Virus record (IMG/VR): IMGVR_UViG_3300044731_000564
Span: 1 to 59,800 of that record
Strand: one strand, 5' to 3'
Source: a virus
Lineage: Duplodnaviria > Caudoviricetes
Length of the DNA: 59,800 bases
Positions 43,779 through 56,998 of this stretch are shown here, piece by piece. A program made the translations under genes and the position numbers. Position 1 is the first letter of the stretch. Every line of letters begins with the position of its first letter. The notes beneath the pieces are model-generated. The model searched no databases. It had not been told where the DNA came from and saw only the letters and a list, made by a program, of their open reading frames with translations.

Positions 43779-44484
43779 TTTATTATTAGATATTTTTCAT
43801 GCAAATGAGGTGAATCATTATAATGCAATAGCACCTTTTGTAATTCCATTAGCAATAAGTGCAGCAACAAGTTTAGGTAAAGTAGCCTATGGTGCAGTTC
43901 AAGCAATTGGTGGCAATAAAAAGTTAAATCAATTAGAGAAGAACAGACCACAAAGGACTACCGACGAGAATATCCTTTACAATCAGAAGTTTGCAAGGGT
44001 AAATGCAGCTAATGGATTAGGTGGTTTAAACGATTATACAAATGATATAAACAGAACATACGCATCAAGTATAAACGCTATTTTAAGTGGCGGTGGAGAT
44101 ATTAACCAAGTAGCCGAACTAATGAGTGGAACTAATAATAGTTTTAATCAATTAATGAGGATGGATGCAGAGGCTAAATTAGCGAACCAAGATAAATTCA
44201 TAGCAGCAAACACAGCATTAGCTAATGAGAACATGGCTAATTGGGATTACAACATAAACATACCATTCCAACAGAAGTACGCAAGATATACACAAAGAAC
44301 AAATGCAGGTGCGCAGAATATAAACACAGGATTAGATGCTTTAGGGAAGACCGCATTAGCGGCAGCCACAGGTTTTTCACAAGATAATGATGGTAATTAT
44401 AAGTGGACAGGAGGAAAAGACGCAAGTTCTAATTATAACTCAACATACAATTCACAAACAGGAGAAGGAACTCTATATACATAA
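43771..44484 (+). CDS. putative internal virion/ejection protein
   Basis: A/G/N/Q-rich with hydrophobic N-terminal helix; follows muzzle gene. Confidence 0.6.
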   Translation: MVNLLLDIFHANEVNHYNAIAPFVIPLAISAATSLGKVAYGAVQAIGGNKKLNQLEKNRPQRTTDENILYNQKFARVNAANGLGGLNDYTNDINRTYASSINAILSGGGDINQVAELMSGTNNSFNQLMRMDAEAKLANQDKFIAANTALANENMANWDYNINIPFQQKYARYTQRTNAGAQNINTGLDALGKTALAAATGFSQDNDGNYKWTGGKDASSNYNSTYNSQTGEGTLYT

Positions 44485-45944
44485 TGGCAGAAAAATTTAC
44501 TATACTACCAAGCTTTGTAGGGCAAGAATCTAATACAGCAGTATTAAATGATAATGTCTTTGCTGATAAACTAATAGAAGCATCAAGGCTTAAATATGCA
44601 ATGGATGAAGCTAAACATCAAGCAGAACAAGAAAGGTTAGCAAAGTCAATAGACTTTAAGTCGGGGGATATACTACAAGTAGATATGGAGTATATTAATG
44701 GTCAAAGAGATGAATATTTAAAATGGATTTCTGCTAACACTGAATTATTAGCAAAACAAGACCCAATGACAGTTTCAAAGCAAAAGCAATGGAAGAATAA
44801 AATAGACACCCAAACAGATATAGCGATAGGAAGAAAGAAACAAGTAGATAATCAGCAAACATATCTTCAAACTGATGCAGCAAGAAGTTCGGGGTATGGA
44901 TTACAAGAAGATTTTGATGCAGTTAATAACTTTGCTAATACTCCAATGGGTGAATGGAAAGGGTATAATGCAAGAGATTTATATAACGAATTAACTTACT
45001 TTAAAGATTACAATATAGAAACACAAAAAACAGTTGATGATAAGGGATATACTAAGACTACAATAAACAAAACACCTTCCGAAGATATAATATCTATTGC
45101 AGACAAAAAGATTAATAGCCCCGAATACAATCAGTTAGTAGGACACTATTTAAAATTATCTAATGGTGCAAGAAACAAAACTACAATTGATGCTGATGTT
45201 GTATATTATGACCCCGAAGATTTTAAGAAAAATGGTGATATGGCAACACCTAAAGTAATTAAACTATCACAAATAACACCCGACAATATAGGAAGCATAG
45301 TTCCATATAAAAAATCAGCATTAGACGAAGCATATAAAAATCTTAAAGAGGAAGATAAGCAAGTTCCTTCAAGTAGTGGTGGAAGTGGTAGTGGTGGTAG
45401 CGATAATAAACCAATAACAAATTGGGTTTCTGATTGGACACTATCAATCGTTAATGACACTATAACGGGTGGCGTAGATGTGTTTGATTCAAGTTCAAAA
45501 ACAGTTTCGGGTAAAAGATTTAATGCACCAAGCGATTTAACAATGCCAATTGTAGGTTCTAAAAGTGGTGAAAAAGAAAGAGTTGTTGGTATATACAAGA
45601 AAAATAATGGGAAATACTATGTAATGAGAGATACTGATTTTTCTCTTAATAAAAGTGGTACTTATTCAATAAAAGAAGGCAAACAATTAGAAAGCGCTAA
45701 TAATGAAATAAAAAGTATGTGGACAGATGTAATTGCGCCTTATTATAGAAGCACATACGGAACTGCATCTGATACAGAATTAGAAAAATATAGATTACAA
45801 ATGTGGGAGAACAATCCACAAGAGGCTAATCAATTAGGAATACCAAAACCAATTAACTTTAACAACAACACAAGTACAACAAATAATACAAGCGGAAAGA
45901 AATATAAAGGATTAGATAAAAACGGAAACCCAATATTTGAATAA
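44484..45944 (+). CDS. putative internal virion/ejection protein
   Basis: Coiled-coil N-half, G/S linker; between ejection-like gene and giant gene. Confidence 0.55.
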   Translation: MAEKFTILPSFVGQESNTAVLNDNVFADKLIEASRLKYAMDEAKHQAEQERLAKSIDFKSGDILQVDMEYINGQRDEYLKWISANTELLAKQDPMTVSKQKQWKNKIDTQTDIAIGRKKQVDNQQTYLQTDAARSSGYGLQEDFDAVNNFANTPMGEWKGYNARDLYNELTYFKDYNIETQKTVDDKGYTKTTINKTPSEDIISIADKKINSPEYNQLVGHYLKLSNGARNKTTIDADVVYYDPEDFKKNGDMATPKVIKLSQITPDNIGSIVPYKKSALDEAYKNLKEEDKQVPSSSGGSGSGGSDNKPITNWVSDWTLSIVNDTITGGVDVFDSSSKTVSGKRFNAPSDLTMPIVGSKSGEKERVVGIYKKNNGKYYVMRDTDFSLNKSGTYSIKEGKQLESANNEIKSMWTDVIAPYYRSTYGTASDTELEKYRLQMWENNPQEANQLGIPKPINFNNNTSTTNNTSGKKYKGLDKNGNPIFE

Positions 45945-48900
45945 TGCCAAATGAAGAATTAATATTAGACGAGCAAAAGAAGCAACAACTTGATAGTAAT
46001 ATCAAAAATATGCTATCTAATGGGGCAACACAAGAAGATGTAATGAGTTACGCATCAGACTTTAAAACAAAGTACGGTCAAAAAAAAAGTCTTATTGGAA
46101 ACACTACCTCAAAAACTTTGGAGAATGGTGTATCAGATACTCCGAAAGTTGAAGATTTTGCTTCACAAGCAGGTGGATGGAGTGGTGGAAACAAGGAACA
46201 AGCACAACCACAAACAAAGCCACAAGAATTAAAGACACCTGCCTATGGTGGGATGAAAGAGAAAATACAAGTTGTAGATAATAGTAAAGATATGACTTCA
46301 TCTGAAATGAATGAAGTCGATAAGAATATTCAAAAAACACTAATGAGAGGTCAAGGATTAGTGGTTGATGATAATGCTGTAATTCCCGATACATATACCG
46401 TTGATAGTGATGTTCAAAGTTTTTTAAGTGGTATTGAAACAGATAAAAAAGAAGAAGTAGGTAAATACTTATATAATTTAAAGATTGGGAATAAAGGTGA
46501 GTTTACTAAGCTATATGATAAATATTTACAAGGTGAGTTAACCGAAAATGATAAATTTAAAATAGAGAGTAGGGCAATAAATAACAAGTTGCAGACATTA
46601 GGGAATGATGCTAATATTTACAATAAAAGAAACGATATAGAATTAGCCAATAATTCAATAAAGGAATATAACGATTTAATAAATGTACAAAAGGAGATAA
46701 TAAAAAAATATCCTGATGTTTATAATAAAGAACAAGCGGTAATAAATAATCAAGCTGCTTTTGATGCACTTAAAGAAATAAATCCAATTACGGGTGGTAT
46801 TGCAGAAGGTCTTAATAACCTAAGAAATGTACCTGCAAAATTATTTGTTGATGCACCTGCTACTATGGCAAAATTCTTTAATGATAAACTTGAAGAAATG
46901 CAAGGTCTTGATGCAAATGCTTATAGTGGTGCTGACAAGGCTTATGATGCAATAAGAGAGTTTACAGATGATTATTTAAAAATTCCACAAACACAGAAAC
47001 CATTATTTAACGATAAAGGTAATTTAGACTACCAACAAGTAATACCTAAAACAGTACAGACATTAGGCGATATGGCTGCCTTAATGATAATGGGTGGGAG
47101 ATTAGGTGCTATTGGGGAAGGTGCTGTATTAGCCAAAGGAACGGCTGATGCAATAGGACTAACAGTAGCAGGTTATTTATCACAAGTTACAGATTATTAT
47201 GATTCAGCAAAAGAATTAGATTTAAGCGATACTGATGCAAGACAATATGCAGAGAATGGTGCTTTTGCTAATGCTATGTTAGAAAATGTAAATCCGAATT
47301 TAAAATTTCTTAGAAATACAAATGCTATTCCTACTGCAATAGAAGAATTAATAAAACAAGGAATAAAGCCAACGGCAGGTGAAATAGCAAAGAAAATATT
47401 AACAGAAGTAGGACAAGAAAATGCACAAGAACTATTACAGTCATTAAGTGATTTAATGGCAGGTGTAGCAGCTAACCAACAAGCAGGTAAGCAACTATTT
47501 GATAGCCAACTATCACCTGAAAACATAAAAGAAACTGTAATACTTACAACATTAGTAACAGCACTTGCAGGTGGTGCTAATATATCAATGGAGAACCTTC
47601 AAAGAAAGGAATCTAAATATGCTTTAATGCAATACTTTAAAAATAAACCTACCGAAGTATTAGATGCAATAAATACACAAGTTCAGAATGGTTCAATTAC
47701 ACAAGCACAAGCAGATAAATTACAAATAGATTTAACAAAGCAAACAATCACTCAATCTAAAACACCAACTAATTTATCTGACGAACAAAAAATTGAAGTT
47801 CAACCATTATTAGAACAAAAACAAGAACTTGTAAAAGAACAAGAGAAAGTAGATGATGCCTTTAAGGGTAGTTTTAAAGAACAGATAGAAGTTATTGACA
47901 ATAAAATAAACGAAATAGCAAAACCAAAATTAGAAGAAATAAAACTTGAAGAAACAAAACCCGAAGCACCTAAACAAGAAGTAATATCAGAAGAAGACTA
48001 CGATGGACTAATAGTAATGCGAAATATAGGCATTTTAGAGGAAGGTGAAGCTGAAAAAATAAAAGCATACGAAGACAGTTTAGATAAAAATTTACAAGTA
48101 AATACAACCGACAATGGCAAAGAAAAAGGGCAAGAAGAAGATGTGTTAAGCACTCAAACCCCAATCCAAGAAGATATAGCAACTGAACCCGTAAGTTCTG
48201 ATGTTATGTCTGAAACACCTACTGAATTAAGAGATGTAGAGAGTACGGCTAAAGCGTTGGCGAAAATTGGGATTACGTCAAAAATACCTGCATCATCTGA
48301 ATACAAAAGAACTGAACCAAAGGAAGTTTCCGAAGCCTACCACAAAGCCAAAGCAGATGGTAGCAACCCTGAATTAGTGAATGCAGTAGAATCCCTACTA
48401 TCTAAAGAACAAACACCAAAATCAGAAAACAAAAAAGTTGATGTAGTAGGTAGTGGTGTAGTAGATAATAAAACAAAGCAACAGTTGTTGGATGAAAGGC
48501 TTGATAAAATAAAAGAAATAAAGGATAAGGCGGAAGGCACAAGAGAGGAAAGGACGAAACGGTATAAGGAGTTGGTAAATGAATTAGGTGATGAAACTGC
48601 CGCTTTAAAAAAGTTACAGGAAGAAATAAACGCAAGGGCAAAAAAAGAGATTGATAAGCTACCTGAATTGCCTAAAACAGAGAGTGAAGTAATCAATGAA
48701 AAAGGGGAGAATGATTTTAAAAAGATAAAAAAGGATTTAGGGTTTAAGTCAAATGATTATAGTTGGGGCAAAAGCCCTATGGATGAAGATATGGGCGATA
48801 TGCTTTTAAGCAAGGATAAAGAATCTGTTATTTTCATAAAGCCAAATGAAGTTGAAGTTTACGATGAGAAAAATGACCAAACAGATACTATTACAAATGG

Positions 48901-51900
48901 TGTAAAAATTGAATTAGTTTCAACTAAAGAAAGTTCAAGAGGTAAAGGGAAGGCAAAGGAAATGGTGCAGAAAGTTACCGATTGGGCAGATAAAAACAAT
49001 ACCGATTTACATTTAGACATTGCCCCACAGGATAAATCAACAACAGAAGCTGGACTTAAAAAATTATACGAATCATTTGGATTTGAATTTGATGGCATAC
49101 ATGGAATTAGAAAACCAAAAGCAGTAGAACAATCCATTGAAAATAAATCTATACCTAAATCCCTAAATGAAATAAAAAGTGGTATCTTTGCGTATGGGAA
49201 AGATAATAGTAAAACGACTAAGCGAATACAATACTTGGGGGCAAATGAAAGCACGTTGCCTAAACAAGACGCACAAGAACTTCAAAGATTACGGGGGGAG
49301 AGGGATAGCTATATCTCCGAATTGGATAAACAACTTCAATCAATTTCTGATAGATATGGGGAGCAGACCGACCCCGAAACATTCAATAGAGAGGATAGAC
49401 AACAATGGGGATTACTGCAAAGAGAATTGCAAGTGGTCGGACAAAGTAGAACAAAGTTGGAACAGGAGAACTACTCTAAAAGTAGAGTACAAGGGGGAAA
49501 TGGTAACAATGCTGTATCTGCAACAAATAACGGGGATAAAACACAGGAGATTAAGGGCAAGGATATTCGAGCAGAATATGACAGTAGAGGAGGCAGTAGC
49601 GAAACCACTAATGAATTGCGGGAGAAAGATAAAAGCGAACAATCCCTACCCACCCAAGAAGTAAAAGTAGAGGGAGATGCACTAAAAAATGTAGAATACA
49701 GTTTAATGCGACCAAAGACCAATGTATTAGTTTATGTTTCTCCCGAAAAATTATTAGAACAAGCAGCAAAAGATAATCCCGATTTTGATGTAACAAATAA
49801 GAAAAATCAAATAGGTAATCGTGTTCAAAAGGCAAAAGATTTTATAAATAATTACATTAAAGATAATAGGTGGATTAATCCTAAGACAAGAGAAAGAGGT
49901 AATACTAAAGTTAAATTTGAACCAAGCCAAGTAAGCGTTAATGATGGTAAAATAGGCTTTGAAGATGGCAGACATAGAGTTCTTGCTGCAAAAGAAATGG
50001 GATTAACTTCTGTTGGTATAGAAGTACCCAAAGAGCAAGAACAATATTTTAAAAGTAAGTTTTCAAATGTAAAAGTAGAACAAAACAAAAAAGAACTATC
50101 TAATACTTCCGATAAAAAAGACATGAAAGAAGAACGTGTCGAAAAGGTGGGTTCTGAAACATATAGAAATACAAAACATAAAGAAGGCAGAACTAAGACT
50201 AAAACTATTGCCGATGGAACTCAAATAAAAGGAACTTATAAAATAGTTTCTTCCGACGATGTATTAGCATCTCATAATGAAGAAACATTTTCTAAAACAA
50301 AGGGGTTTCCAACCGATGAAAAAGGGAATACTGTAAACGATAGAAATTATGAAACAGATATAAACGCACAATCAGAAGTAGGTATAATTGCAGAAAACCT
50401 CGATGATAGAGCAATTTCTCAAACACCAATAGTTACTAAAGATGGGATTATAGTTGATGGTAATAACCGAACTATGAGCCGTAAACTTGCAGCTAAAAAC
50501 GGTACTGATGCAAATTATATTCAAGCACTAAAAGAAAATGCAGACCTATATGGATTTACAGAAGAAGATGTTGATGCAGTAAAAAATCCAATGTTGGTAT
50601 TTGAGGCTAAAGAAGATTTACCTTATACTACTAAAACATTTTCACGTTTCAACAAAGAAGAAAAGAAAGCTAAATCACCAAGAGAGAAAGCAGTTGAAAT
50701 AAGCAAAACAATAAGCGATAGAGCAAGAAGAATTATTGCAGAAATATACGAAAACGCAGAAACTCCAAGTGATGTAACAAGCGACCCAAAGAAAGTAAGC
50801 GAATTAAAAAAGATATTTATTGATGAGGGGATAATTCAAACAAATGAATTGCCTAAATATTTTAATTTAGAAACAGGAACGGCTACAAGAGATGGAGTTT
50901 CTTTTATTGAAACGATATTAATGGGTAGCGCATTAGATGAAAATACCATTCGCACATTAGATATGGATGGTATGGGGAATGTTAGAAATATCATATTAAA
51001 ATCAGTTGTTAGTCTAACTAAAAATGCAGCACTAAAAGAAGATTCATTACAACCTAATATACTAAAAGGAATAGAATTAGTATCTAAGGCAAAAGCATCT
51101 AAAACATCTGTACTTAGCCTTATTGGACAACTTCAAATTTATGAGATTAGCAATTATAGTTCAGAAGACTTAGCTATTGCAATACTATTAGAAGGTAAAG
51201 GGTTTAATGACTTTTTAAAAATTTATAATTCCGAAGTAGGAACAGAATCTTTGTTTTACGGAAAAATGACAAAGGATAAATTAATCGACAATTTACTTAA
51301 TCAAAAAATAAAAAACTATGAACAAGTTAGAAAAAATTTACGCAATGATGCCGAACAAGGAAAGGGAGAAGTTCAAGATGGCAATGGAAATATTGGACAA
51401 GAAGACAAAGGAAGCGAAGCAAATAAAGGAGAAAAAGAAAATAAAATAGAAGATGAAGGTAGTGTTGATAGAGAGAAAGGTGTTCCTTTTATAAAAAAGA
51501 TATTTGATAAAATTAGAAGTATAACAAAATTAAATAAAGTACAACATAATAGACTTTTTGATATTGATACTAAATTATCAAAAGAAATTGCGGATGCTTA
51601 TGAAAAAATGAAGCACAACCCTAATAACCCTAAAGTAAAGAAAGCTTATAAGGCAATGGTTGAAGAAACAAAGCAACAATATGACGCTTTGATTGAAGGG
51701 GGATTAAAAGCAGAAAGATGGACAGGCAAAGGAGAGCCTTATGCAAATTCAAAAGAAATGCTAAGTGATTTAAAGGAAAACAATCATTTATGGTTTCTAC
51801 CAAATGAAAGTGCGTTTGGAGATAAAGATGCAGCTACAAAATATAAAGACAATATTGGTTTACAAGATTCAGGTATTACTATTGATGGGAAACCATTAAC

Positions 51901-54900
51901 TAATTCGGAAGTATTTAGAATTGTTCACGATGCGGTTCATGGAATAAACGGAAGTGAATTTGGCGCAATAGGAGAAGAAAATGCTACACTACAACATTTA
52001 TCAATGTATTCTGATGAAGCGTTACCTGCCGTAGTTGCACAAACAAGAGGGCAAAATAGTTGGGTTAATTTTTCAGGGGTTAACGATTCTGCAAATGCTA
52101 AATTTAAAGAAGCGGCTAAACTTGAAAAAGAAGGTAAATATGATGAAGCAAAAAAAATTAGGGAAGAAGCGCAAAAAGAGTTTACATTTGCAGAACCGAA
52201 AATAGGATTATTACCAAATAAATATAATTTTAGATACTATGGAACAAAAAACGCAGAACTCGCAAGTAAAGAGAGAACTAACACCCGAAGTGGAGATGGT
52301 AATAAGGGAGAATCCAAGCCATTACCTACACTCGGATATGGAAAGAATGTGGCAAGAGAATCAAAATCTTTCAGTTCAAGAAGCAATAGCGAAGGTAGAA
52401 CGATTCGCACAAGCTATGGGGATATAGTTCCTAAAGCAATACATACAGTTAAGCAATCGTTAGTTGATGGAATAAAAAAAGCATTCCCTAAAGCAACTAT
52501 TGATAAAGAACTTTTTGAAGTAGATGCTGATATTTTCCATAAAGCAGCCACAAAAGCGAAATCTGTAAATGAGTTCGGTGCAGCAGTAGATGTGTTGTCA
52601 CCAAAAGAATATTCTAAATATAGACTGTTTATAACAGAAGATGGATTGACAGGCATAGCACTATCACCTAACGGTGATTTGGGAAGCGGTTTTGATATGT
52701 CGGGCAAACCAAGAAGATTACCTCAACTATTAGTATTAGGCATTGAAAATGGAGCAACTCACGCCAATGCTTTCCACACAATACTTCCAAACTATTATAC
52801 TGCATTTGGATTTAAGCCCGTTGCACGTAATCTTTGGAACGATGCTTTAAAGCCCGAAGATTGGAATTATGAAACATTTAAGGATTTTAACAATGGCAGA
52901 CCCGATGTAGTTCACTTTATTTGGGATGGTGGCGATAGAAACACTATACATGAACGTATAGGTCAATTTGATAACTATAACGACTACCATAAAGAGCAAA
53001 CACCTGTAATTAACACATGGAAGGAAGCGCAAGAAATTGTACAACAATCCCTCAAAGAAACACCTACATCAGAAAAACAAAACAAAATATCCGATGCAGC
53101 CAACAAACTTGCAGATGACTTTGCAAAGAAGTTCAAGTCATCACCACCACCTAAGTTCTATGATAAGGATGGTAACGAAATGCAGATATTTACAAAGGGG
53201 GCAACGTGGAATGATATGGTTGATGCTATCGCAGAAGGAATTAGACAAGCAGGTAAAGTAGCACAAGGAGCAGTAGATATAGCAAAGGTAATTAGCGAAT
53301 ACCTTGAAAGTCAAAAGTGGTTTCAAGATTTAACCGATGCCAATAAAAAAATAATTACCGAAAGAGTAAAGTCTAAGTTCTTAGAGGAAAAATCAAAGGA
53401 GATAAAACCACCTGTTGAACCACCTACTGAAAATAAAAAAGAATTAGATAGTGAAGAATTATTACCTGACGATAAAGCATTTTTAAAAAGAGTAGCTACA
53501 TCTACTAACATATCTAAAGAAGCAAAAGATATTTTAGAGAAAGAAGGTTTAAAATATGTTCCGAGAAGTTGGGATGAAGCAAAGAAAATTGCACAAGAAT
53601 TAAAAAAAGAATTTACTGAAAGAGAACTGTTATCAATGATTGATAATGGCAAATTCAATAATGATATAGGAACATTTATCATGGCTGAAATGATGAATGA
53701 TTCTATGTTATTAGAAGAAAAAGCAGATACACCCGAAGCAAGACTAAAGGCTGCCGAAAAATCAGCAAGGCTATATATTAAAGCAGATGAAATATTTAGA
53801 GGTTGGGGTAGGGGTATTAATGCTATTCGTGCTTTCTATCGTGATTCACCATTAGGAGTAGTTTTAAAAACTAAAAAACAATGGGAGGAAAGAGTTGATA
53901 ATGCGCTTAAAGGTCAAGAAAAAACAATCAAAGAATTATTAGATGATATTAAAGATTCAGATGAGTTTAGAGATTTCTTGAATGAAGAAGTTAATAAAAA
54001 ATTAAAGAACAAAAAGCCTATAATTAACAAGGCAAGACACAAGAAGATAATTGACTTTTTTGATTCTTTGAAGTCCACTAAAGCAGACCCCAATAAGCCA
54101 CAAGCATCATCTATTATACCACCACAAATTTTAGATAACGCAATAGAGTTTATGAAACAAGCAACATTAGCAGGGTCTTCTGTTAATGATATTATTAGGT
54201 ATGGTATTGAACACATAAACTCAAACATAAAAGAGGCGTGGGATGAGAATGAATTTAGAAAAAAGTTTGAGCCAAAGATTCAACAGTTAATTGATTCATT
54301 AGAAGAAAATGATTGGAATAGTGTTATGCAATCATTAAAGACTAAGAATAAACAAGCCAAAGTTTCTGTTACAACAAAATATACTAACCTATTAAATAAC
54401 ATTAAGAAACTTTCATCAAATGAAAGAGCATCAATGGTTAGAGGGTTAATAGGTAATTTATATTCAGATAAGATAATAACTAAAGAACAGTTATCGGACT
54501 ATGTAAATAACGAAATAGATTTACAAGATATTATAGAAAGTCTTGATGATACAAATAAGGAATTAGTTATAAGTAAATTAAATCAACTATCAACTACTAT
54601 TGTATCAGCAAAAGAAGGAGCAAAAGGAGATGTTAATGTAACCGATATATTAAGGCAGAGGAAAGAAATGCTTGACAGGTGGAGAACTAAATTAGATAAA
54701 TTAGAACCACAAAAGAGAGATGATTTTCTTAGAAAAATAATGAATAAGGTTATAGAAGCAGGTGGATTAGAGTATGATGATTTTAGACAAATGTATGCAG
54801 AGGCAATAGGTCTTCCTGTAATGACAGATGAAATTGCAGCTAAGATTAAAGAACTTGTATTAAATAAAAATAAATTTGTAGAATCATTTAACAAGGCTAA

Positions 54901-56998
54901 AGAGTTACTTGAAAAAGATAAACTTACAGATGCAGAATACGAATCGTTTAAGAAAGAAGCAGAATTAGCCGAAAAAGTAGCAGAGAAAAGCGCAAAGGAA
55001 TTAAATCTACTTGTAGGTAAAACGGGTAATGTAAGCGACTTGATAGGTACTCTTATGCAAGGTTCAGCACTATCATTAAGGTCAACTGTAAACAACGTAT
55101 TATTTAATGCGGTTAATATGCCTATAAAAATGGCAAGTAGCATAACAAGAACAGGAATAGAGCAACTTGTATTCAGAGGGCTACCAACATTAATACCTAA
55201 ACTAAAGGGTAAGGAGTTCTTTAAAAGAAATCCATATAACGCATTTAGTGGTGGAGTTAGTGCAACAGAGTATGCAGGTATAGGACTAAAAAAATCACTA
55301 AAACAAATATATACAGGTGCAGGTGAAAAAGATTACTTCAATCACGAAATAAGAGCAGGGCTACAACCTAAAGAAGCACTTAGTAAGATATGGAAAAACA
55401 TAACGGGTGCAAGGAAAGATTCTATTAATGATAATATATATCACGCAATAGAGGGGACAATGGGATGGCTACCTGAAACTATGTTTAGATTGCAGAACGT
55501 AGGGGATAAGCCTATAAGATTTTATGCAGAAGCAAAAGAAGCAGCACGTATAGCAAACGAAAAAGGACTTACAGGGAACAAAGCTAAATTATTTGTACAA
55601 TTTCCCGACGAACAAAGCAAAGAAAGAATACAAAAGGCAGGTGATGAAAGTGTATTGACACAAGAAAATAAAATTAACGAATGGGTTAAAGACTTTCAGA
55701 ATTATCTAACAAGACAATCAGAAAAAGAAAATAGTAAGTTAGGCAAGTTTGCATTTAACTTAGTAAAGGTATTTGCAAAAAGTACAATGCTATTTACCAA
55801 GACACCTGCAAACGCAGCAATGATGGTAATGAAGTTGGCAGTACCCGAAGCATCTGCAATAACAGGTCTTGCTCAAATATCAAGGTCTATAAAAACAAAT
55901 GATAAATCATTATTCGATGATGGAATGAAGAACCTATCTATTGCATCAGTAGGATGGGGATTAGCTTATTTAACGGCAAACTTAATAGCAACAGGACTTA
56001 TAACACCACCACCTGACGATGAAGATAAAAAGTCTAAAAGAGGTTTCTATGAAACAGGGTATAAGTTAAATTGGAGTGCATTTAATAGATGGATGGATGG
56101 TGGAAATATTAATCCAATGAAAGGTGATGTTGTAACAGATATGAGCATATTAGGAACATTAGGGTATGTAATGTCTGCAACATGGGCAAGGTCAAAGCAA
56201 AGCAAGAATTATTTAGATGGAGCGTTCAATGCCTTTGGAACATCATTTAATGCAAGTGTAGAACAAGCAATACTAAGAAACGCAGGTGCAGCAGCAACGG
56301 CAATTAAAAATCATTCGGTTAGTGATTTATTAATATCATACCTTACAAGCCTTGAAAATATTATATCGCCAAGAGGTTTATTTGACTTAGTTGAGTATAA
56401 TAGTTATGTTCCCGATAAAACTTTATTAACCGATAAGGAAAAAGTTTTAGCACCATTAAAGATGAGATTCTTTGGAGGAGATAAAAAGAATATTCCCCCT
56501 ACTATTGATATGTTTGGTGAAGAAGTAAAGAGATACGGAGATAGCGATAGTTGGGTAGCATCATATTTTTTAGGTACAAGAACATTGCAAATAGACCCTG
56601 CAAAAGAGAAACTTGCTAAAATGTATTTAGAACTTGAAACAAATAAAGACCTACAAAAAGGGGTATATCCAACTAAACCCGAACCTTCAATAACTATTAA
56701 TGGTAAAAAAGTTGAACTTACTAAAGATGAATATTTAGAATATCAAAAAATGATAGGGAAGTCAAGATTTGATTGGATTAAATATACATTTGATGGGGCT
56801 AGCATAGAGGATGAAGATAAAAATACTATGGTGTTTGAAGACTTGAATGAAGCACAAAAGATTGATGCTATAAAAGATTCTTATTCAAAAGGGTATAATC
56901 AAGGAGTTAAAAACTTCATAGAGGTAAACCCTAAATTTGAAGAAGCAAATTTTGAAGATGAAACTAATAGAGTTTCAATACAAGGTAAGCCCGATTAA
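45944..56998 (+). CDS. giant polyvalent internal virion protein (GNAT, ParB-like, DdrB-like ParB, His-motif domain, second GNAT-like domain)
   Basis: 3684-aa ORF; SRGKGKAK...LYESFGF (GNAT), EDGRHR (ParB), SH...DRNY...DGNNR (DdrB-ParB), FRIVHDAVH...GEENA...TRGQNSWVNF, LPNYYTAFGF...GRPDVV. Confidence 0.85.
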   Translation: MPNEELILDEQKKQQLDSNIKNMLSNGATQEDVMSYASDFKTKYGQKKSLIGNTTSKTLENGVSDTPKVEDFASQAGGWSGGNKEQAQPQTKPQELKTPAYGGMKEKIQVVDNSKDMTSSEMNEVDKNIQKTLMRGQGLVVDDNAVIPDTYTVDSDVQSFLSGIETDKKEEVGKYLYNLKIGNKGEFTKLYDKYLQGELTENDKFKIESRAINNKLQTLGNDANIYNKRNDIELANNSIKEYNDLINVQKEIIKKYPDVYNKEQAVINNQAAFDALKEINPITGGIAEGLNNLRNVPAKLFVDAPATMAKFFNDKLEEMQGLDANAYSGADKAYDAIREFTDDYLKIPQTQKPLFNDKGNLDYQQVIPKTVQTLGDMAALMIMGGRLGAIGEGAVLAKGTADAIGLTVAGYLSQVTDYYDSAKELDLSDTDARQYAENGAFANAMLENVNPNLKFLRNTNAIPTAIEELIKQGIKPTAGEIAKKILTEVGQENAQELLQSLSDLMAGVAANQQAGKQLFDSQLSPENIKETVILTTLVTALAGGANISMENLQRKESKYALMQYFKNKPTEVLDAINTQVQNGSITQAQADKLQIDLTKQTITQSKTPTNLSDEQKIEVQPLLEQKQELVKEQEKVDDAFKGSFKEQIEVIDNKINEIAKPKLEEIKLEETKPEAPKQEVISEEDYDGLIVMRNIGILEEGEAEKIKAYEDSLDKNLQVNTTDNGKEKGQEEDVLSTQTPIQEDIATEPVSSDVMSETPTELRDVESTAKALAKIGITSKIPASSEYKRTEPKEVSEAYHKAKADGSNPELVNAVESLLSKEQTPKSENKKVDVVGSGVVDNKTKQQLLDERLDKIKEIKDKAEGTREERTKRYKELVNELGDETAALKKLQEEINARAKKEIDKLPELPKTESEVINEKGENDFKKIKKDLGFKSNDYSWGKSPMDEDMGDMLLSKDKESVIFIKPNEVEVYDEKNDQTDTITNGVKIELVSTKESSRGKGKAKEMVQKVTDWADKNNTDLHLDIAPQDKSTTEAGLKKLYESFGFEFDGIHGIRKPKAVEQSIENKSIPKSLNEIKSGIFAYGKDNSKTTKRIQYLGANESTLPKQDAQELQRLRGERDSYISELDKQLQSISDRYGEQTDPETFNREDRQQWGLLQRELQVVGQSRTKLEQENYSKSRVQGGNGNNAVSATNNGDKTQEIKGKDIRAEYDSRGGSSETTNELREKDKSEQSLPTQEVKVEGDALKNVEYSLMRPKTNVLVYVSPEKLLEQAAKDNPDFDVTNKKNQIGNRVQKAKDFINNYIKDNRWINPKTRERGNTKVKFEPSQVSVNDGKIGFEDGRHRVLAAKEMGLTSVGIEVPKEQEQYFKSKFSNVKVEQNKKELSNTSDKKDMKEERVEKVGSETYRNTKHKEGRTKTKTIADGTQIKGTYKIVSSDDVLASHNEETFSKTKGFPTDEKGNTVNDRNYETDINAQSEVGIIAENLDDRAISQTPIVTKDGIIVDGNNRTMSRKLAAKNGTDANYIQALKENADLYGFTEEDVDAVKNPMLVFEAKEDLPYTTKTFSRFNKEEKKAKSPREKAVEISKTISDRARRIIAEIYENAETPSDVTSDPKKVSELKKIFIDEGIIQTNELPKYFNLETGTATRDGVSFIETILMGSALDENTIRTLDMDGMGNVRNIILKSVVSLTKNAALKEDSLQPNILKGIELVSKAKASKTSVLSLIGQLQIYEISNYSSEDLAIAILLEGKGFNDFLKIYNSEVGTESLFYGKMTKDKLIDNLLNQKIKNYEQVRKNLRNDAEQGKGEVQDGNGNIGQEDKGSEANKGEKENKIEDEGSVDREKGVPFIKKIFDKIRSITKLNKVQHNRLFDIDTKLSKEIADAYEKMKHNPNNPKVKKAYKAMVEETKQQYDALIEGGLKAERWTGKGEPYANSKEMLSDLKENNHLWFLPNESAFGDKDAATKYKDNIGLQDSGITIDGKPLTNSEVFRIVHDAVHGINGSEFGAIGEENATLQHLSMYSDEALPAVVAQTRGQNSWVNFSGVNDSANAKFKEAAKLEKEGKYDEAKKIREEAQKEFTFAEPKIGLLPNKYNFRYYGTKNAELASKERTNTRSGDGNKGESKPLPTLGYGKNVARESKSFSSRSNSEGRTIRTSYGDIVPKAIHTVKQSLVDGIKKAFPKATIDKELFEVDADIFHKAATKAKSVNEFGAAVDVLSPKEYSKYRLFITEDGLTGIALSPNGDLGSGFDMSGKPRRLPQLLVLGIENGATHANAFHTILPNYYTAFGFKPVARNLWNDALKPEDWNYETFKDFNNGRPDVVHFIWDGGDRNTIHERIGQFDNYNDYHKEQTPVINTWKEAQEIVQQSLKETPTSEKQNKISDAANKLADDFAKKFKSSPPPKFYDKDGNEMQIFTKGATWNDMVDAIAEGIRQAGKVAQGAVDIAKVISEYLESQKWFQDLTDANKKIITERVKSKFLEEKSKEIKPPVEPPTENKKELDSEELLPDDKAFLKRVATSTNISKEAKDILEKEGLKYVPRSWDEAKKIAQELKKEFTERELLSMIDNGKFNNDIGTFIMAEMMNDSMLLEEKADTPEARLKAAEKSARLYIKADEIFRGWGRGINAIRAFYRDSPLGVVLKTKKQWEERVDNALKGQEKTIKELLDDIKDSDEFRDFLNEEVNKKLKNKKPIINKARHKKIIDFFDSLKSTKADPNKPQASSIIPPQILDNAIEFMKQATLAGSSVNDIIRYGIEHINSNIKEAWDENEFRKKFEPKIQQLIDSLEENDWNSVMQSLKTKNKQAKVSVTTKYTNLLNNIKKLSSNERASMVRGLIGNLYSDKIITKEQLSDYVNNEIDLQDIIESLDDTNKELVISKLNQLSTTIVSAKEGAKGDVNVTDILRQRKEMLDRWRTKLDKLEPQKRDDFLRKIMNKVIEAGGLEYDDFRQMYAEAIGLPVMTDEIAAKIKELVLNKNKFVESFNKAKELLEKDKLTDAEYESFKKEAELAEKVAEKSAKELNLLVGKTGNVSDLIGTLMQGSALSLRSTVNNVLFNAVNMPIKMASSITRTGIEQLVFRGLPTLIPKLKGKEFFKRNPYNAFSGGVSATEYAGIGLKKSLKQIYTGAGEKDYFNHEIRAGLQPKEALSKIWKNITGARKDSINDNIYHAIEGTMGWLPETMFRLQNVGDKPIRFYAEAKEAARIANEKGLTGNKAKLFVQFPDEQSKERIQKAGDESVLTQENKINEWVKDFQNYLTRQSEKENSKLGKFAFNLVKVFAKSTMLFTKTPANAAMMVMKLAVPEASAITGLAQISRSIKTNDKSLFDDGMKNLSIASVGWGLAYLTANLIATGLITPPPDDEDKKSKRGFYETGYKLNWSAFNRWMDGGNINPMKGDVVTDMSILGTLGYVMSATWARSKQSKNYLDGAFNAFGTSFNASVEQAILRNAGAAATAIKNHSVSDLLISYLTSLENIISPRGLFDLVEYNSYVPDKTLLTDKEKVLAPLKMRFFGGDKKNIPPTIDMFGEEVKRYGDSDSWVASYFLGTRTLQIDPAKEKLAKMYLELETNKDLQKGVYPTKPEPSITINGKKVELTKDEYLEYQKMIGKSRFDWIKYTFDGASIEDEDKNTMVFEDLNEAQKIDAIKDSYSKGYNQGVKNFIEVNPKFEEANFEDETNRVSIQGKPD
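49183..49190 (+). promoter_or_regulatory. internal -7 promoter element (TATCTTTG) for nested HNH gene
   Basis: TAnnTTTG-CGT-ATG, similar to TAnnTTTG-CATT-ATG at 203 and 20149. Confidence 0.55.
49194..49664 (+). CDS. HNH homing-endonuclease-like protein nested in +1 frame of the giant gene
   Basis: EYNTWGQMKARC...YGGRGI...W...F..DMG.RP....SIERIDNNGDYCKENCKW....Q..NRR plus C-terminal HTH-like tail. Confidence 0.88.
   Translation: MGKIIVKRLSEYNTWGQMKARCLNKTHKNFKDYGGRGIAISPNWINNFNQFLIDMGSRPTPKHSIERIDNNGDYCKENCKWSDKVEQSWNRRTTLKVEYKGEMVTMLYLQQITGIKHRRLRARIFEQNMTVEEAVAKPLMNCGRKIKANNPYPPKK
51318..51449 (+). CDS. nested 43-aa helical protein in +1 frame of the giant gene
   Basis: MNKLEKIYAMMPNKEREKFKMAMEILDKKTKEAKQIKEKKKIK; start context AAAAAATAAAAAACTATG matches real gene starts. 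Confidence 0.5.
   Translation: MNKLEKIYAMMPNKEREKFKMAMEILDKKTKEAKQIKEKKKIK
52239..52427 (+). CDS. nested 62-aa helical protein in +1 frame of the giant gene
   Basis: Amphipathic, protein-like sequence while the host frame is low-complexity linker; start context ATACTATG as for the MCP gene. Confidence 0.6.
   Translation: MEQKTQNSQVKRELTPEVEMVIRENPSHYLHSDMERMWQENQNLSVQEAIAKVERFAQAMGI

What the first reader, a model, noticed from the sequence alone, without database searches (positions are those of the whole stretch)
49183..49664. Complete HNH endonuclease gene hidden in the +1 frame of the giant gene, with no intron or intein
Seen: 156 codons with all the family motifs (W..MK.RC, YGGRGI, SIERIDNNGDY..ENCKW, Q..NRR) lie wholly inside the 11-kb ORF. 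The host frame stays open across all 471 nt and reads as hydrophilic linker. The segment looks more G-rich than its flanks and has its own TAnnTTTG box 3 nt before the ATG. Established: homing endonucleases normally avoid damaging host genes by sitting in introns, inteins or intergenic space. Inference: another strategy, in which the element keeps a stop-free alternative frame and is tolerated as a disordered linker in a modular virion protein.
Basis: partly seen in the sequence, partly recalled or inferred. Interest (0 to 1): 0.9.

Follow-up and report, generated by a model that had tools for sequence, protein, structure and literature searches.

The report
Hidden HNH-like gene inside giant gene
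A complete homing-endonuclease-like gene sits in a shifted reading frame inside a giant phage protein gene, and its codons are chosen so that the giant gene still reads through; this arrangement was first published in 2025, so this is a new and unusually clear example.

Summary
An intact 156-codon ORF (ATG 49194 to 49664; GTG option at 49179) lies in the +1 frame of the 3684-aa giant ORF and matches PHROG 3377 'HNH endonuclease' (E 1.3e-44). The host frame has no stop across it. That is not chance: none of the 60 HNH codons that could create a host-frame stop ends in T (P about 1e-14 to 1e-15), and 0 of 79 relatives elsewhere have this frame open. No intron (Rfam) or intein signal was found. 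The block fills the whole linker between a GNAT-like and a ParB-like module. Independent lake-water runs carry it.

The same +1 arrangement occurs in two other giant genes (L082, L083) and in a PolA intein-like insert (L081). It is also inferred in six more proteins.

The idea is not new. Arsenault et al. 2025 described out-of-frame HNH insertions without intron or intein in actinophage methylases, and their Pacc40 gp60 hidden ORF belongs to this same family (46.8% identity).

Caveats:
- The family has Arg where the canonical HNH His sits, so nuclease activity is unproven.
- The TAnnTTTG box is at chance level.
- Expression and mobility are inferred.
- No exact empty-site allele was found.

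Verdict: a new member of a known kind, with the strongest dual-coding signal so far.

The parts
45944..56998 (+). Giant host ORF (3684 aa). It is a polyvalent-type multi-module protein encoded downstream of the terminase, portal and virion structural genes.
   Evidence: Pfam PF18763 ddrB-ParB at residues 1424-1552. Neighbouring genes match terminase, portal and virion-protein PHROGs. The modules are shuffled among 64 giant homologues.
48413..49132 (+). Module A (residues about 824-1063), a GNAT/acetyltransferase-like module that ends just before the block.
   Evidence: phrog_1249 acetyltransferase at residues 994-1056. P0003, P0006 and P0016 align to residues 824-1060, 832-1072 and 843-1078 at 70-81% identity, then diverge. 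In the representative search, module A matches end at query residues 102-104.
49133..49675 (+). The dual-coding block, which is the whole linker between modules A and C. Its GC is raised. In the host frame it reads as a hydrophilic peptide with no Cys (residues about 1064-1244).
   Evidence: GC 0.41-0.43 against 0.30-0.34 in the flanks. There are 0 host-frame stops. DNA similarity to L082 and L083 is confined to the block. A contig in run X13 diverges from the window right after 49135. The AF2 model shows helices at query 114-224 (pLDDT 81-92 over 131-210) and disorder at 228-277.
49194..49664 (+). HNH-like (phrog_3377) gene in the +1 frame: 156 codons plus stop. An alternative GTG start lies at 49179.
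   Evidence: The AF2 model has mean pLDDT 90.6. All nine invariant family residues are kept.
49183..49190 (+). TATCTTTG, a match to TAnnTTTG 3 nt upstream of the ATG. It is not distinguishable from chance.
   Evidence: 90 matches in the window against 97.3 expected.
49165..49178 (+). A-rich stretch (AAATGAAATAAAAA) just upstream of the GTG at 49179. It resembles the A-rich leaders, without Shine-Dalgarno motifs, of this phage's other genes, so it is a candidate internal initiation region (inference).
   Evidence: Only 4 of 40 gene starts have an SD-like motif, and most have A-rich upstream sequence.
49676..50068 (+). Module C (residues about 1245-1375), a ParB-like module with the motif 'GFEDGRHRVLAAKE'. 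It begins 12 nt or more after the HNH stop.
   Evidence: 85 of the 150 listed representatives match only this module, from query residues about 283-296 onward. Real identity starts at about query residue 286.

Best explanation
This is a Pacc40/ShiLan-type out-of-frame HNH-like insertion element.

A gene of a widespread phage family annotated as HNH homing endonuclease occupies the whole linker between two modules of a giant polyvalent phage protein. The family combines an N-terminal ββα-type domain with a C-terminal helix-turn-helix-like module. The gene is read in the +1 frame.

Ribosomes translating the giant gene read straight through it in frame 0. That reading yields a hydrophilic insert of about 180 aa that stays in the protein as a linker. 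Nothing is spliced.

The host frame is kept open purely by synonymous codon choice in the HNH-like gene. No codon that precedes an AA-, AG- or GA-starting codon ends in T.

Inferred steps:
- The HNH-like protein is made separately by internal initiation, at ATG 49194 or GTG 49179, behind an A-rich leader without a Shine-Dalgarno motif.
- It acts on DNA to copy the block into block-less linkers of related giant genes during co-infection.
For: Real, intact gene:
- phrog_3377 at E 1.3e-44.
- A 162-codon open run in a frame that otherwise has 0.089 stops per codon.
- All 9 residues invariant in a 32-sequence family alignment are kept.
- A confident fold, pLDDT 90.6.

Selection on host-frame openness:
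- 0 of 60 risky codons end in T, against 21 of 95 non-risky ones. About 21 host-frame stops are expected. P(no stop | protein, phage codon usage) is 3e-14. In 20,000 synonymous permutations of its own codons, none was stop-free.
- The result is replicated in three other loci: L082 0/87, L083 0/100 and L081 0/72, with P from 1e-11 to 2e-20.
- Among 79 IMG/VR relatives, none has this frame open. The mean is 0.14 stops per codon.

No splicing element:
- No Rfam match at E<=1 in 48000-51000.
- No Hint or intein Pfam hit.
- No Cys in the host-frame peptide.
- Only about 60 nt before the ATG and about 12 nt after the stop lie outside the ORF.

Mobility and recurrence:
- The block sits in unrelated flanks in the window, L082 and L083.
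- In the orthologous giant proteins L082 and P0067 the block core is 85% identical, against 16-33% in the upstream flanks and 36-68% in the downstream ones.
- Six further proteins carry a host-frame peptide compatible with a +1 HNH at 54-66 of 89 positions. The background mean is about 14 and the 99.9th percentile about 25 in the long proteins. For the two short fragments (P0124, P0175) the percentile is 57 and 51, because the match itself dominates the few offsets.

Assembly:
- 10 of 24 runs hold at least half of the sampled words.
- A contig from run X7 covers 48976-49341 without a difference.

Precedent: the hidden ORF of Pacc40 gp60 is 46.8% identical, E 1.7e-19.
Against: - No exact empty-site allele of this giant gene was found. 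No representative joins module A directly to module C (0 of 150 listed).
- No read or contig joint skips the block in the four runs laid.
- No near-identical copies exist, so dN/dS in the two frames could not be computed.
- The canonical HNH general-base His is Arg (R67), and the family has no invariant His.
- No Pfam HNH model matches. The best structural match is weak: PacI, Z 5.8.
- Expression of the inner ORF is untested. The only RNA contig lies upstream, at 48731-48989.
- The TAnnTTTG box is at chance level.
- The T3 depletion at non-risky sites could reflect a foreign origin rather than selection for a hydrophilic linker.
Confidence: 0.8

Rival explanations
1. The inner gene is a domesticated or non-catalytic DNA-binding protein, for example a regulator, and not an active homing nuclease. 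The dual coding is real but the block no longer moves.
For: Arg replaces the catalytic His, and no His is invariant in the 32-sequence alignment. No Pfam HNH hit. Structural similarity to HNH enzymes is weak (PacI Z 5.8, Gme HNH Z 2.8). The embedded copies are only 61-66% identical in the core, so no recent transfer is visible between the window, L082 and L083.
Against: The block lies in unrelated flanks in at least three giant genes. It is far more conserved than its flanks between L082 and P0067. The same family is nested in an intein-like insert of a PolA gene (L081), which is a classic homing-endonuclease niche. Relatives are annotated as homing or HNH endonucleases in many phages.
Confidence: 0.25
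2. The inner ORF is a decaying relic that is no longer translated. Only the host frame is functional today.
For: No expression data exist for the inner ORF. No recognisable promoter signal. No close relatives are available to test purifying selection.
Against: It stays open for 162 codons where 0.089 stops per codon are the rule. All 9 invariant family residues are retained. The HNH frame is more conserved than the host frame in 3 of 3 embedded pairs (0.47-0.52 against 0.38-0.42). The model is confident.
Confidence: 0.1
3. The HNH-like domain is made as a C-terminal fusion by a +1 ribosomal or transcriptional slip on the A5 run at 49174-49178. The product would be the first 1078 residues of the giant protein joined to the HNH-like domain.
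For: The +1 frame opens at 49176, right inside an AAAAA run, with 6 sense codons before the ATG.
Against: A5 runs are common in this 32% GC genome. Relatives are free-standing proteins that start at the equivalent position. No conserved slippery site was seen in L082 or L083.
Confidence: 0.05
4. The segment is removed by an unrecognised self-splicing intron, by translational bypassing, or by protein splicing.
For: HNH genes commonly live in group I introns and inteins. The related L081 copy sits inside an intein-like insert.
Against: No Rfam hit at E<=1. No Hint or intein Pfam hit and no Cys. The flanks outside the ORF are too short for a ribozyme core or a Hint domain. If the RNA were spliced, nothing would select for the stop-free host frame seen.
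Confidence: 0.03
5. The arrangement is an assembly artefact or chimera.
For: This is a metagenome-assembled record estimated at 54% complete.
Against: The stretch 48600-50300 is held in 24 runs of 22 studies. X5 holds 0.94 and X6 0.87 of the sampled words, and neither is flagged as a possible source. A contig from X7 bridges the left junction with 0 differences. The same arrangement is found in independent contigs L082 and L083. A chimera would not yield a stop-free host frame.
Confidence: 0.01

Closest known systems
Hidden out-of-frame ORF in Mycobacterium phage Pacc40 gp60 (helicase/methylase). Source: Arsenault, Gosselin & Gogarten 2025, Genes 16:178, PMC11855218; I read the abstract and sections 1, 3 and 4.
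   Same: It is the same protein family: P0001 against the Pacc40 hidden ORF gives 46.8% identity over residues 17-93, E 1.7e-19. It is also an insertion inside a host ORF that stays open, with no intron or intein detected. The authors likewise call the HNH assignment 'less certain'.
   Different: In Pacc40 the hidden frame is +2 of the host; here it is +1. The Pacc40 DNA is 63% GC, and all three frames of that segment have 0, 0 and 1 stops, so the open host frame costs little there. Here GC is 32-42% and about 21 stops are avoided by codon choice. The host gene there is a methylase-type enzyme. Here it is the inter-module linker of a polyvalent giant protein.
ShiLan domain: an out-of-frame HNH in actinophage DNA methylases (same paper).
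   Same: An in-frame insertion without stops, with the HNH in another frame, no splicing element found and internal initiation proposed. The host-frame product is predicted as a helical hairpin or loop, comparable to the long helices predicted here.
   Different: The ShiLan HNH is a canonical HNH with flanking zinc fingers (195 aa), placed in the third frame and inserted at a conserved enzyme site. That paper shows a disjunct presence and absence among close relatives, which I could not show here.
Inteins with out-of-frame homing endonucleases: the cyanobacterial dnaX intein (bioRxiv 10.64898/2026.09.14.751524; abstract and one discussion section read) and endonuclease VII-like HENs in actinophage inteins (bioRxiv 10.1101/2025.01.02.630785; passages only).
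   Same: The endonuclease is encoded in an overlapping frame while the host frame stays open. Locus L081 found here is of this type: a PolA gene with an intein-like insert and an HNH-like gene in the +1 frame.
   Different: In those cases the read-through peptide is removed with the intein. In the window there is no intein and the peptide must stay in the mature protein.
Free-standing homing endonuclease genes that split host genes. This is recalled, not checked here: the T-even phage mobE/nrd 'genes in pieces'.
   Same: A homing-type endonuclease gene is inserted into a coding region without intron or intein.
   Different: Those insertions break the host gene into two ORFs. Here the host ORF stays continuous.
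Polyvalent proteins of phages and conjugative elements (Iyer et al. 2017, PMC5512222; search listing and abstract only).
   Same: The host gene has the same architecture: many shuffled modules including ddrB-ParB.
   Different: That work describes in-frame domains. An overlapping-frame mobile gene in the linkers did not appear in the titles or abstracts of my three literature searches.

Membership tests
Out-of-frame HNH insertion element (ShiLan/Pacc40 type, PMC11855218) | The insertion lies within a host ORF and adds no stop in the host frame. | tested here: met
   0 host-frame stops across 49179-49664, and the giant ORF is continuous over 45944-56998.
Out-of-frame HNH insertion element (ShiLan/Pacc40 type, PMC11855218) | A complete HNH-like ORF lies in an alternative frame of the same strand. 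| tested here: met
   +1 frame, 156 aa, phrog_3377 at E 1.3e-44. Homologous to the Pacc40 hidden ORF, E 1.7e-19.
Out-of-frame HNH insertion element (ShiLan/Pacc40 type, PMC11855218) | No self-splicing intron and no intein. | tested here: met
   Rfam gives 0 matches at E<=1. No Hint or intein Pfam hit. The flanks outside the ORF are about 60 nt and about 12 nt. An unknown ribozyme class cannot be excluded by these tools.
Out-of-frame HNH insertion element (ShiLan/Pacc40 type, PMC11855218) | Disjunct presence and absence among related host genes (evidence of homing). | tested here: inconclusive
   The block occurs in unrelated flanks and is more conserved than its flanks. A contig in run X13 diverges at 49135. 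No exact empty-site allele was found, with 0 of 150 representatives joining A directly to C.
HNH (ββα-metal) endonuclease superfamily | Match to a curated HNH profile. | tested here: inconclusive
   PHROGs 3377, 374, 2081 and 953, all named HNH endonuclease, match. No Pfam or NCBIfam HNH model matches.
HNH (ββα-metal) endonuclease superfamily | ββα-metal fold. | tested here: inconclusive
   The model has strands at 64-67 and 79-82 and a helix at 84-90. The best PDB representative is the HNH restriction enzyme PacI, 3m7k_A: Z 5.8, rmsd 2.9, 78 residues aligned. That is below the level the tool regards as safe. Foldseek found nothing at E<=0.001.
HNH (ββα-metal) endonuclease superfamily | A catalytic His (general base) at the end of the first strand. 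| tested here: not met
   The position is Arg (R67, invariant), and no His is invariant in 32 sequences. The assignment of motif positions is my own reading of the alignment and model.
HNH (ββα-metal) endonuclease superfamily | A conserved Asn, plus an Asn or His on the helix. | tested here: met
   N78 and N90 are invariant. Their roles are inferred by position only.
Intein | Hint-fold splicing blocks, an N-terminal Cys or Ser, and a C-terminal His-Asn followed by Cys, Ser or Thr. | tested here: not met
   No Pfam hit. The host-frame peptide has 0 Cys. Only about 20 residues lie before the HNH ORF and about 5 after it, between modules A and C.
Group I or group II intron | A ribozyme core recognisable by covariance models. 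| tested here: not met
   0 Rfam matches at E<=1 on both strands of 48000-51000.
Polyvalent protein (host gene) | One giant polypeptide made of many shuffled conflict-related modules, including ddrB-ParB. | tested here: met
   PF18763 at residues 1424-1552. The modules recur in different orders in 64 giant proteins.

The most novel reading that the evidence does not exclude
A lineage of HNH-like mobile genes has specialised in living inside the flexible linkers of giant polyvalent phage proteins. Its codon usage is tuned to avoid host-frame stops. It may also be tuned to make the read-through peptide hydrophilic and helical, so that the element 'pays rent' as a linker. Its DNA breaks may be one driver of the module shuffling typical of these proteins.

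Support so far:
- At least 9 distinct host proteins carry the block.
- The host-frame peptide has fewer hydrophobic residues than stop-free synonymous resamplings in the three giant-gene copies (0 of 3000 resamplings as low, each), but not in the intein-nested copy L081.
- In-frame module-level polymorphisms sit next to the block in natural populations.
Probability: 0.3. Interest if true: 0.7.

Novelty: new member of a known kind. Interest (0 to 1): 0.5.

Why it matters
Overlapping-frame mobile genes are invisible to standard gene callers, and so far they are documented only in high-GC actinophages, where open alternative frames are cheap.

This case, with at least three sister loci, shows the same life-style in AT-rich freshwater phages. 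There it demands about 20-30 avoided stops per copy. That gives a clean, quantifiable signature of selection on two frames at once.

It also points to polyvalent-protein linkers as a permissive niche for such elements. A simple search recipe follows from this work: take the host-frame translation of a conserved endonuclease motif and use it to find more copies.

It does not overturn current ideas.

Tried and rejected
Searches that found nothing:
- blastn of 48000-51000 against GenBank phages: no match.
- Pattern scan of IMG/VR with the host-frame 605-aa segment: no relative.
- tblastn of the host-frame block peptide against GenBank phages: no match.
- Genome-contig scan with the host-frame alignment: none confirmed.
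- PDB sequence search with the HNH-like protein: only chance-level rows, E 0.45 or higher.
- Foldseek against the PDB: nothing at E<=0.001.

Reads:
- No joint skipping the block appeared in the four runs laid. These were Logan contigs at depth about 2-5, which drop rare variants, so this says nothing about absence.
- The RNA run X20 gave one identical contig at 48731-48989 and no cover over the block. This is no evidence either way on transcription of the block.
- No SNPs were listed inside the block, so no dN/dS could be computed.

Tree: only the quick search finished. It is poorly resolved (5 of 53 branches starred). It shows only that the window's nearest rows are L083 and L082, and that L081 is separate.

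Representative search:
- P0084 first looked like an A-block-C relative. Its middle part is an unrelated linker, with compatibility 26/89, which is background.
- P0092, P0073, P0095 and P0099 extend into the block only as low-complexity alignment.
- P0197 and P0168 are also at background.

GRAVY of the host-frame peptide is not consistently lower than in resamplings: 1118, 10 and 733 of 3000 were as low. Only the count of hydrophobic residues is lower.

Tools unavailable or unused:
- Supplementary files and the GitHub material of PMC11855218 were not seen. They may list further elements of this kind.
Full report
**What is there**

The window is an IMG/VR viral record of 59.8 kb, estimated at 54% complete. 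Almost all its genes are on the + strand. Genes for terminase, portal and several virion structural proteins precede a 3684-aa ORF at 45944-56998.

That ORF carries a ddrB-ParB domain (PF18763, residues 1424-1552). Its modules recur in different orders in 64 other giant proteins. This is the architecture described as 'polyvalent proteins' (PMC5512222; listing and abstract only).

Inside it, in the +1 frame, lies an ORF from GTG 49179 or ATG 49194 to the stop at 49662-49664.

**Is the inner ORF a real gene?**

- It matches phrog_3377 'HNH endonuclease' at E 1.3e-44, and four more HNH or restriction-endonuclease PHROGs.
- tblastn finds relatives in 874 GenBank phage records, all below 60% identity.
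- A pattern scan finds relatives in 79 IMG/VR loci, with a best full-length identity of 45%. That scan was seeded by exact 8-mers such as YCKENCKW, so the sample is biased towards that motif.
- In the +1 frame the giant gene has 329 stops (0.089 per codon). Its longest open run is these 162 codons, and the next longest is 83.
- An AlphaFold2 model built on a 32-row alignment has mean pLDDT 90.6. The alignment holds the window, L081-L084, and 27 of the 79 loci, chosen for coverage.

**Is the open host frame chance?**

No. The host frame is the +2 frame of the HNH-like gene. A stop arises there only when a codon ending in T is followed by a codon starting with AA, AG or GA. Openness can therefore be bought with synonymous changes alone.

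| Measure | Result |
|---|---|
| 'Risky' codons ending in T | 0 of 60 |
| Other codons ending in T | 21 of 95 |
| T at third positions | 0.13, against 0.34 in the phage's genes |
| G at third positions | 0.33, against 0.12 in the phage's genes |
| Host-frame stops expected from the protein sequence and the phage's codon usage | 21 |
| Probability of no host-frame stop | 3e-14 (1e-15 with the giant gene's own usage) |
| Synonymous permutations of the gene's own codons that are stop-free | 0 of 20,000 (mean 7.4 stops) |

In the 79 IMG/VR relatives the same frame has on average 0.14 stops per codon, and none of the 79 is stop-free.

**Not an intron, an intein or an artefact**

- Rfam finds nothing at E<=1 on either strand of 48000-51000.
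- Pfam finds no Hint or intein domain.
- The host-frame peptide has no Cys.
- Homology to module A (GNAT-like) ends at about residue 1063. This comes from P0003, P0006 and P0016 and from the representative search.
- Homology to module C (ParB-like) starts at about residue 1245.
- The block of about 540 nt is therefore the whole A-C linker. Only about 60 nt before the ATG and about 12 nt after the stop lie outside the inner ORF. That leaves no room for a ribozyme core or a Hint domain.
- RNA splicing would also remove any reason for the stop-free host frame.

On the assembly, the stretch 48600-50300 is held in 24 lake or freshwater runs from 22 studies. Ten of them hold at least half of the sampled words, and four are flagged as possible sources. 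A contig of run X7 covers 48976-49341 without a difference.

**The same arrangement elsewhere**

I searched with the host-frame peptide rather than with the HNH protein. This turned up:

- P0067, a 2212-aa protein with 52% identity over 117 residues and otherwise almost no similarity.
- Locus L081 in IMG/VR.
- Loci L082 and L083 in metagenome contigs.
- L084, from the same scan, which is free-standing and serves as a control.

| Locus | Host ORF | HNH-like ORF (+1 frame, stop to stop) | Risky codons ending in T | P(no host-frame stop) |
|---|---|---|---|---|
| L082 | at least 2422 codons | 228 codons | 0/87 | 3e-19 |
| L083 | 1813 codons | 264 codons | 0/100 | 2e-20 |
| L081 | 616 codons (cut by the contig end) | 253 codons | 0/72 | 1e-11 |

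DNA similarity among the window, L082 and L083 is confined to the block, and the flanks do not align. The host proteins are otherwise unrelated or only weakly related.

L082's host protein is an orthologue of P0067. The block core is 85% identical between them, against 16-33% upstream and 36-68% downstream.

A full HMMER scan of 1.84 billion representatives with residues 960-1400 gave 165 hits. Of the 150 listed:

- 85 carry only module C.
- 56 carry only module A.
- None joins A directly to C.
- P0124, P0138, P0142, P0147 and P0175 carry a block peptide that a +1 HNH-like ORF could encode at 54-62 of 89 core positions.
- P0067 scores 66 of 89 on the same test.
- The background mean is about 14. 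The 99.9th percentile is about 25 in the long proteins, but 57 and 51 in the short fragments P0124 and P0175, where the match itself dominates the few offsets.

For these six proteins the inner ORF is inferred, because their DNA could not be read.

L081 is a different niche. It is a family-A DNA polymerase with an insert of about 340 aa between the motif A and motif C regions. The first 110 residues of the insert resemble Hint/intein domains in the ESM Atlas searches, which is lead-level evidence. The HNH-like gene lies in the +1 frame in the middle of that insert.

**Signs of constraint in both frames**

- Among the three giant-gene copies, core amino-acid identity is 0.61-0.66 and identity at HNH third positions is 0.63-0.67.
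- Sixteen free-standing pairs of the same amino-acid divergence have third-position identity of 0.48 on average, with a maximum of 0.56. That comparison used 59 free-standing segments: those of the 79 loci that cover residues 20-97 without a stop or an N, plus L084.
- The restricted base choice at these positions contributes to this.
- The HNH frame is more conserved than the host frame in 3 of 3 pairs (0.47-0.52 against 0.38-0.42).

The host-frame peptides of the three giant-gene copies contain fewer hydrophobic residues than stop-free synonymous resamplings. The values are 0.19 against 0.26, 0.21 against 0.31, and 0.18 against 0.26, with 0 of 3000 resamplings as low in each case. The intein-nested L081 copy shows the opposite, 0.30 against 0.24. 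This fits selection for a benign linker only where the peptide stays in the protein. Two cautions apply: GRAVY does not show the same effect consistently, and a foreign codon usage could mimic it.

An AF2 model of residues 960-1400 predicts long helices for the host-frame reading of the HNH core (query 114-224; pLDDT 81-92 over 131-210) and disorder for the rest (query 228-277). It lies between well-modelled A and C modules. The alignment behind this model is thin in that part.

**What the inner protein is**

The family alignment has these invariant residues: R21, C22, G37, I38, R67, Y74, N78, N90 and R123. No His is invariant. In my reading of the model (strands 64-67 and 79-82, helix 84-90), R67 takes the place of the HNH general-base His.

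The best structural match is the HNH restriction enzyme PacI (Z 5.8, rmsd 2.9, 78 residues). The C-terminal part weakly resembles helix-turn-helix DNA-binding modules, including those of I-TevI and I-HmuI (Z about 2.5). All of this is below the tool's safe range.

Nuclease activity is therefore an open question. DNA binding is likely. The C-terminal module is present once in the window, twice in L082 and three times in L083.

**Expression**

TATCTTTG at 49183-49190 matches TAnnTTTG, but the motif is no more frequent in the window than in shuffles (90 against 97.3).

Only 4 of 40 genes have an SD-like motif, and most starts are preceded by A-rich sequence. GTG 49179 is preceded by AAATGAAATAAAAA. 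Internal initiation without a Shine-Dalgarno motif is therefore plausible, but it is an inference.

**What is known**

Arsenault, Gosselin and Gogarten (2025, PMC11855218; abstract and sections 1, 3 and 4 read) described exactly this strategy. Their cases are the 'ShiLan domain' and the Pacc40 gp60 insertion in actinophage methylases: out-of-frame HNH-type ORFs, an open host frame, no intron or intein, and proposed leaderless initiation.

I fetched Pacc40. Its hidden ORF is 159 codons, lies in the +2 frame of the host and has 63% GC. It is a member of the same family as the window's ORF (46.8% identity, E 1.7e-19). In that GC-rich segment the three frames have 0, 0 and 1 stops, so openness there is nearly free.

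Out-of-frame endonucleases inside inteins are also described, in 10.64898/2026.09.14.751524 and 10.1101/2025.01.02.630785.

Three literature searches listed no report of such elements in polyvalent proteins or outside actinophages and cyanobacteria. Supplements were closed.

**Verdict**

What this case adds:

- A different frame offset (+1).
- An AT-rich setting that makes the dual-coding selection measurable (P about 1e-14 to 1e-20 per copy).
- A new host niche: the linkers of giant polyvalent proteins, with at least nine host proteins.
- A same-family copy nested in an intein-like insert.

Still unshown are expression of the inner ORF, nuclease activity, an empty-site allele and homing.

Noticed in passing
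L081:1-1851 (IMGVR_UViG_3300043607_000016): This is a family-A DNA polymerase gene with an insert of about 340 aa between the motif A and motif C regions. The insert begins 'CIAEGQ...' and ends '...LVGN|S'. Its first 110 residues look Hint/intein-like in the Atlas searches. A 252-aa HNH-like gene of the same family lies in the +1 frame in the middle of the insert (482-1240), with the intein frame open. It is an out-of-frame-HEN intein.
   Followed up: partly
window 48360-49117: A contig in run X13 joins 48360 to 49117 with 18 other letters between. This is an in-frame replacement of 756 nt (module A) by 6 codons in a related strain. Module-level indel polymorphism therefore exists in the natural population (table 5c).
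   Followed up: no
window 49135: A contig in run X13 matches the window up to 49135, the end of module A and the left edge of the block. It then continues for 36 nt with sequence not found anywhere in the window. In frame it reads as a hydrophilic peptide. It may be an allele with another linker instead of the block.
   Followed up: partly
L082:2224-2907, L083:5969-6760, window 49500-49640: The C-terminal helix-turn-helix-like module of the HNH-like protein ('YKGE..T....L....GI....I..RI..GM.VEEA...PL') is present once in the window, twice in L082 and three times in L083. P0067 lacks one repeat relative to L082, through an in-frame 48-aa gap.
   Followed up: no
window, all gene starts: Only 4 of 40 gene starts have an SD-like motif, and the leaders are A-rich. 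TAnnTTTG is not enriched. The host's initiation mode looks SD-independent, but the host taxon stays unknown.
   Followed up: partly
window 48731-48989: A 259-nt contig from a freshwater metatranscriptome run (X20) is identical to the giant gene upstream of the block. DNA carry-over in the library cannot be excluded.
   Followed up: no
window 44484-45944 / 45944; L083 2723-4258 / 4258: In both the window and L083 the giant gene's ATG overlaps the stop of a preceding gene of 486-511 aa with no known family. This suggests conserved synteny and translational coupling.
   Followed up: no
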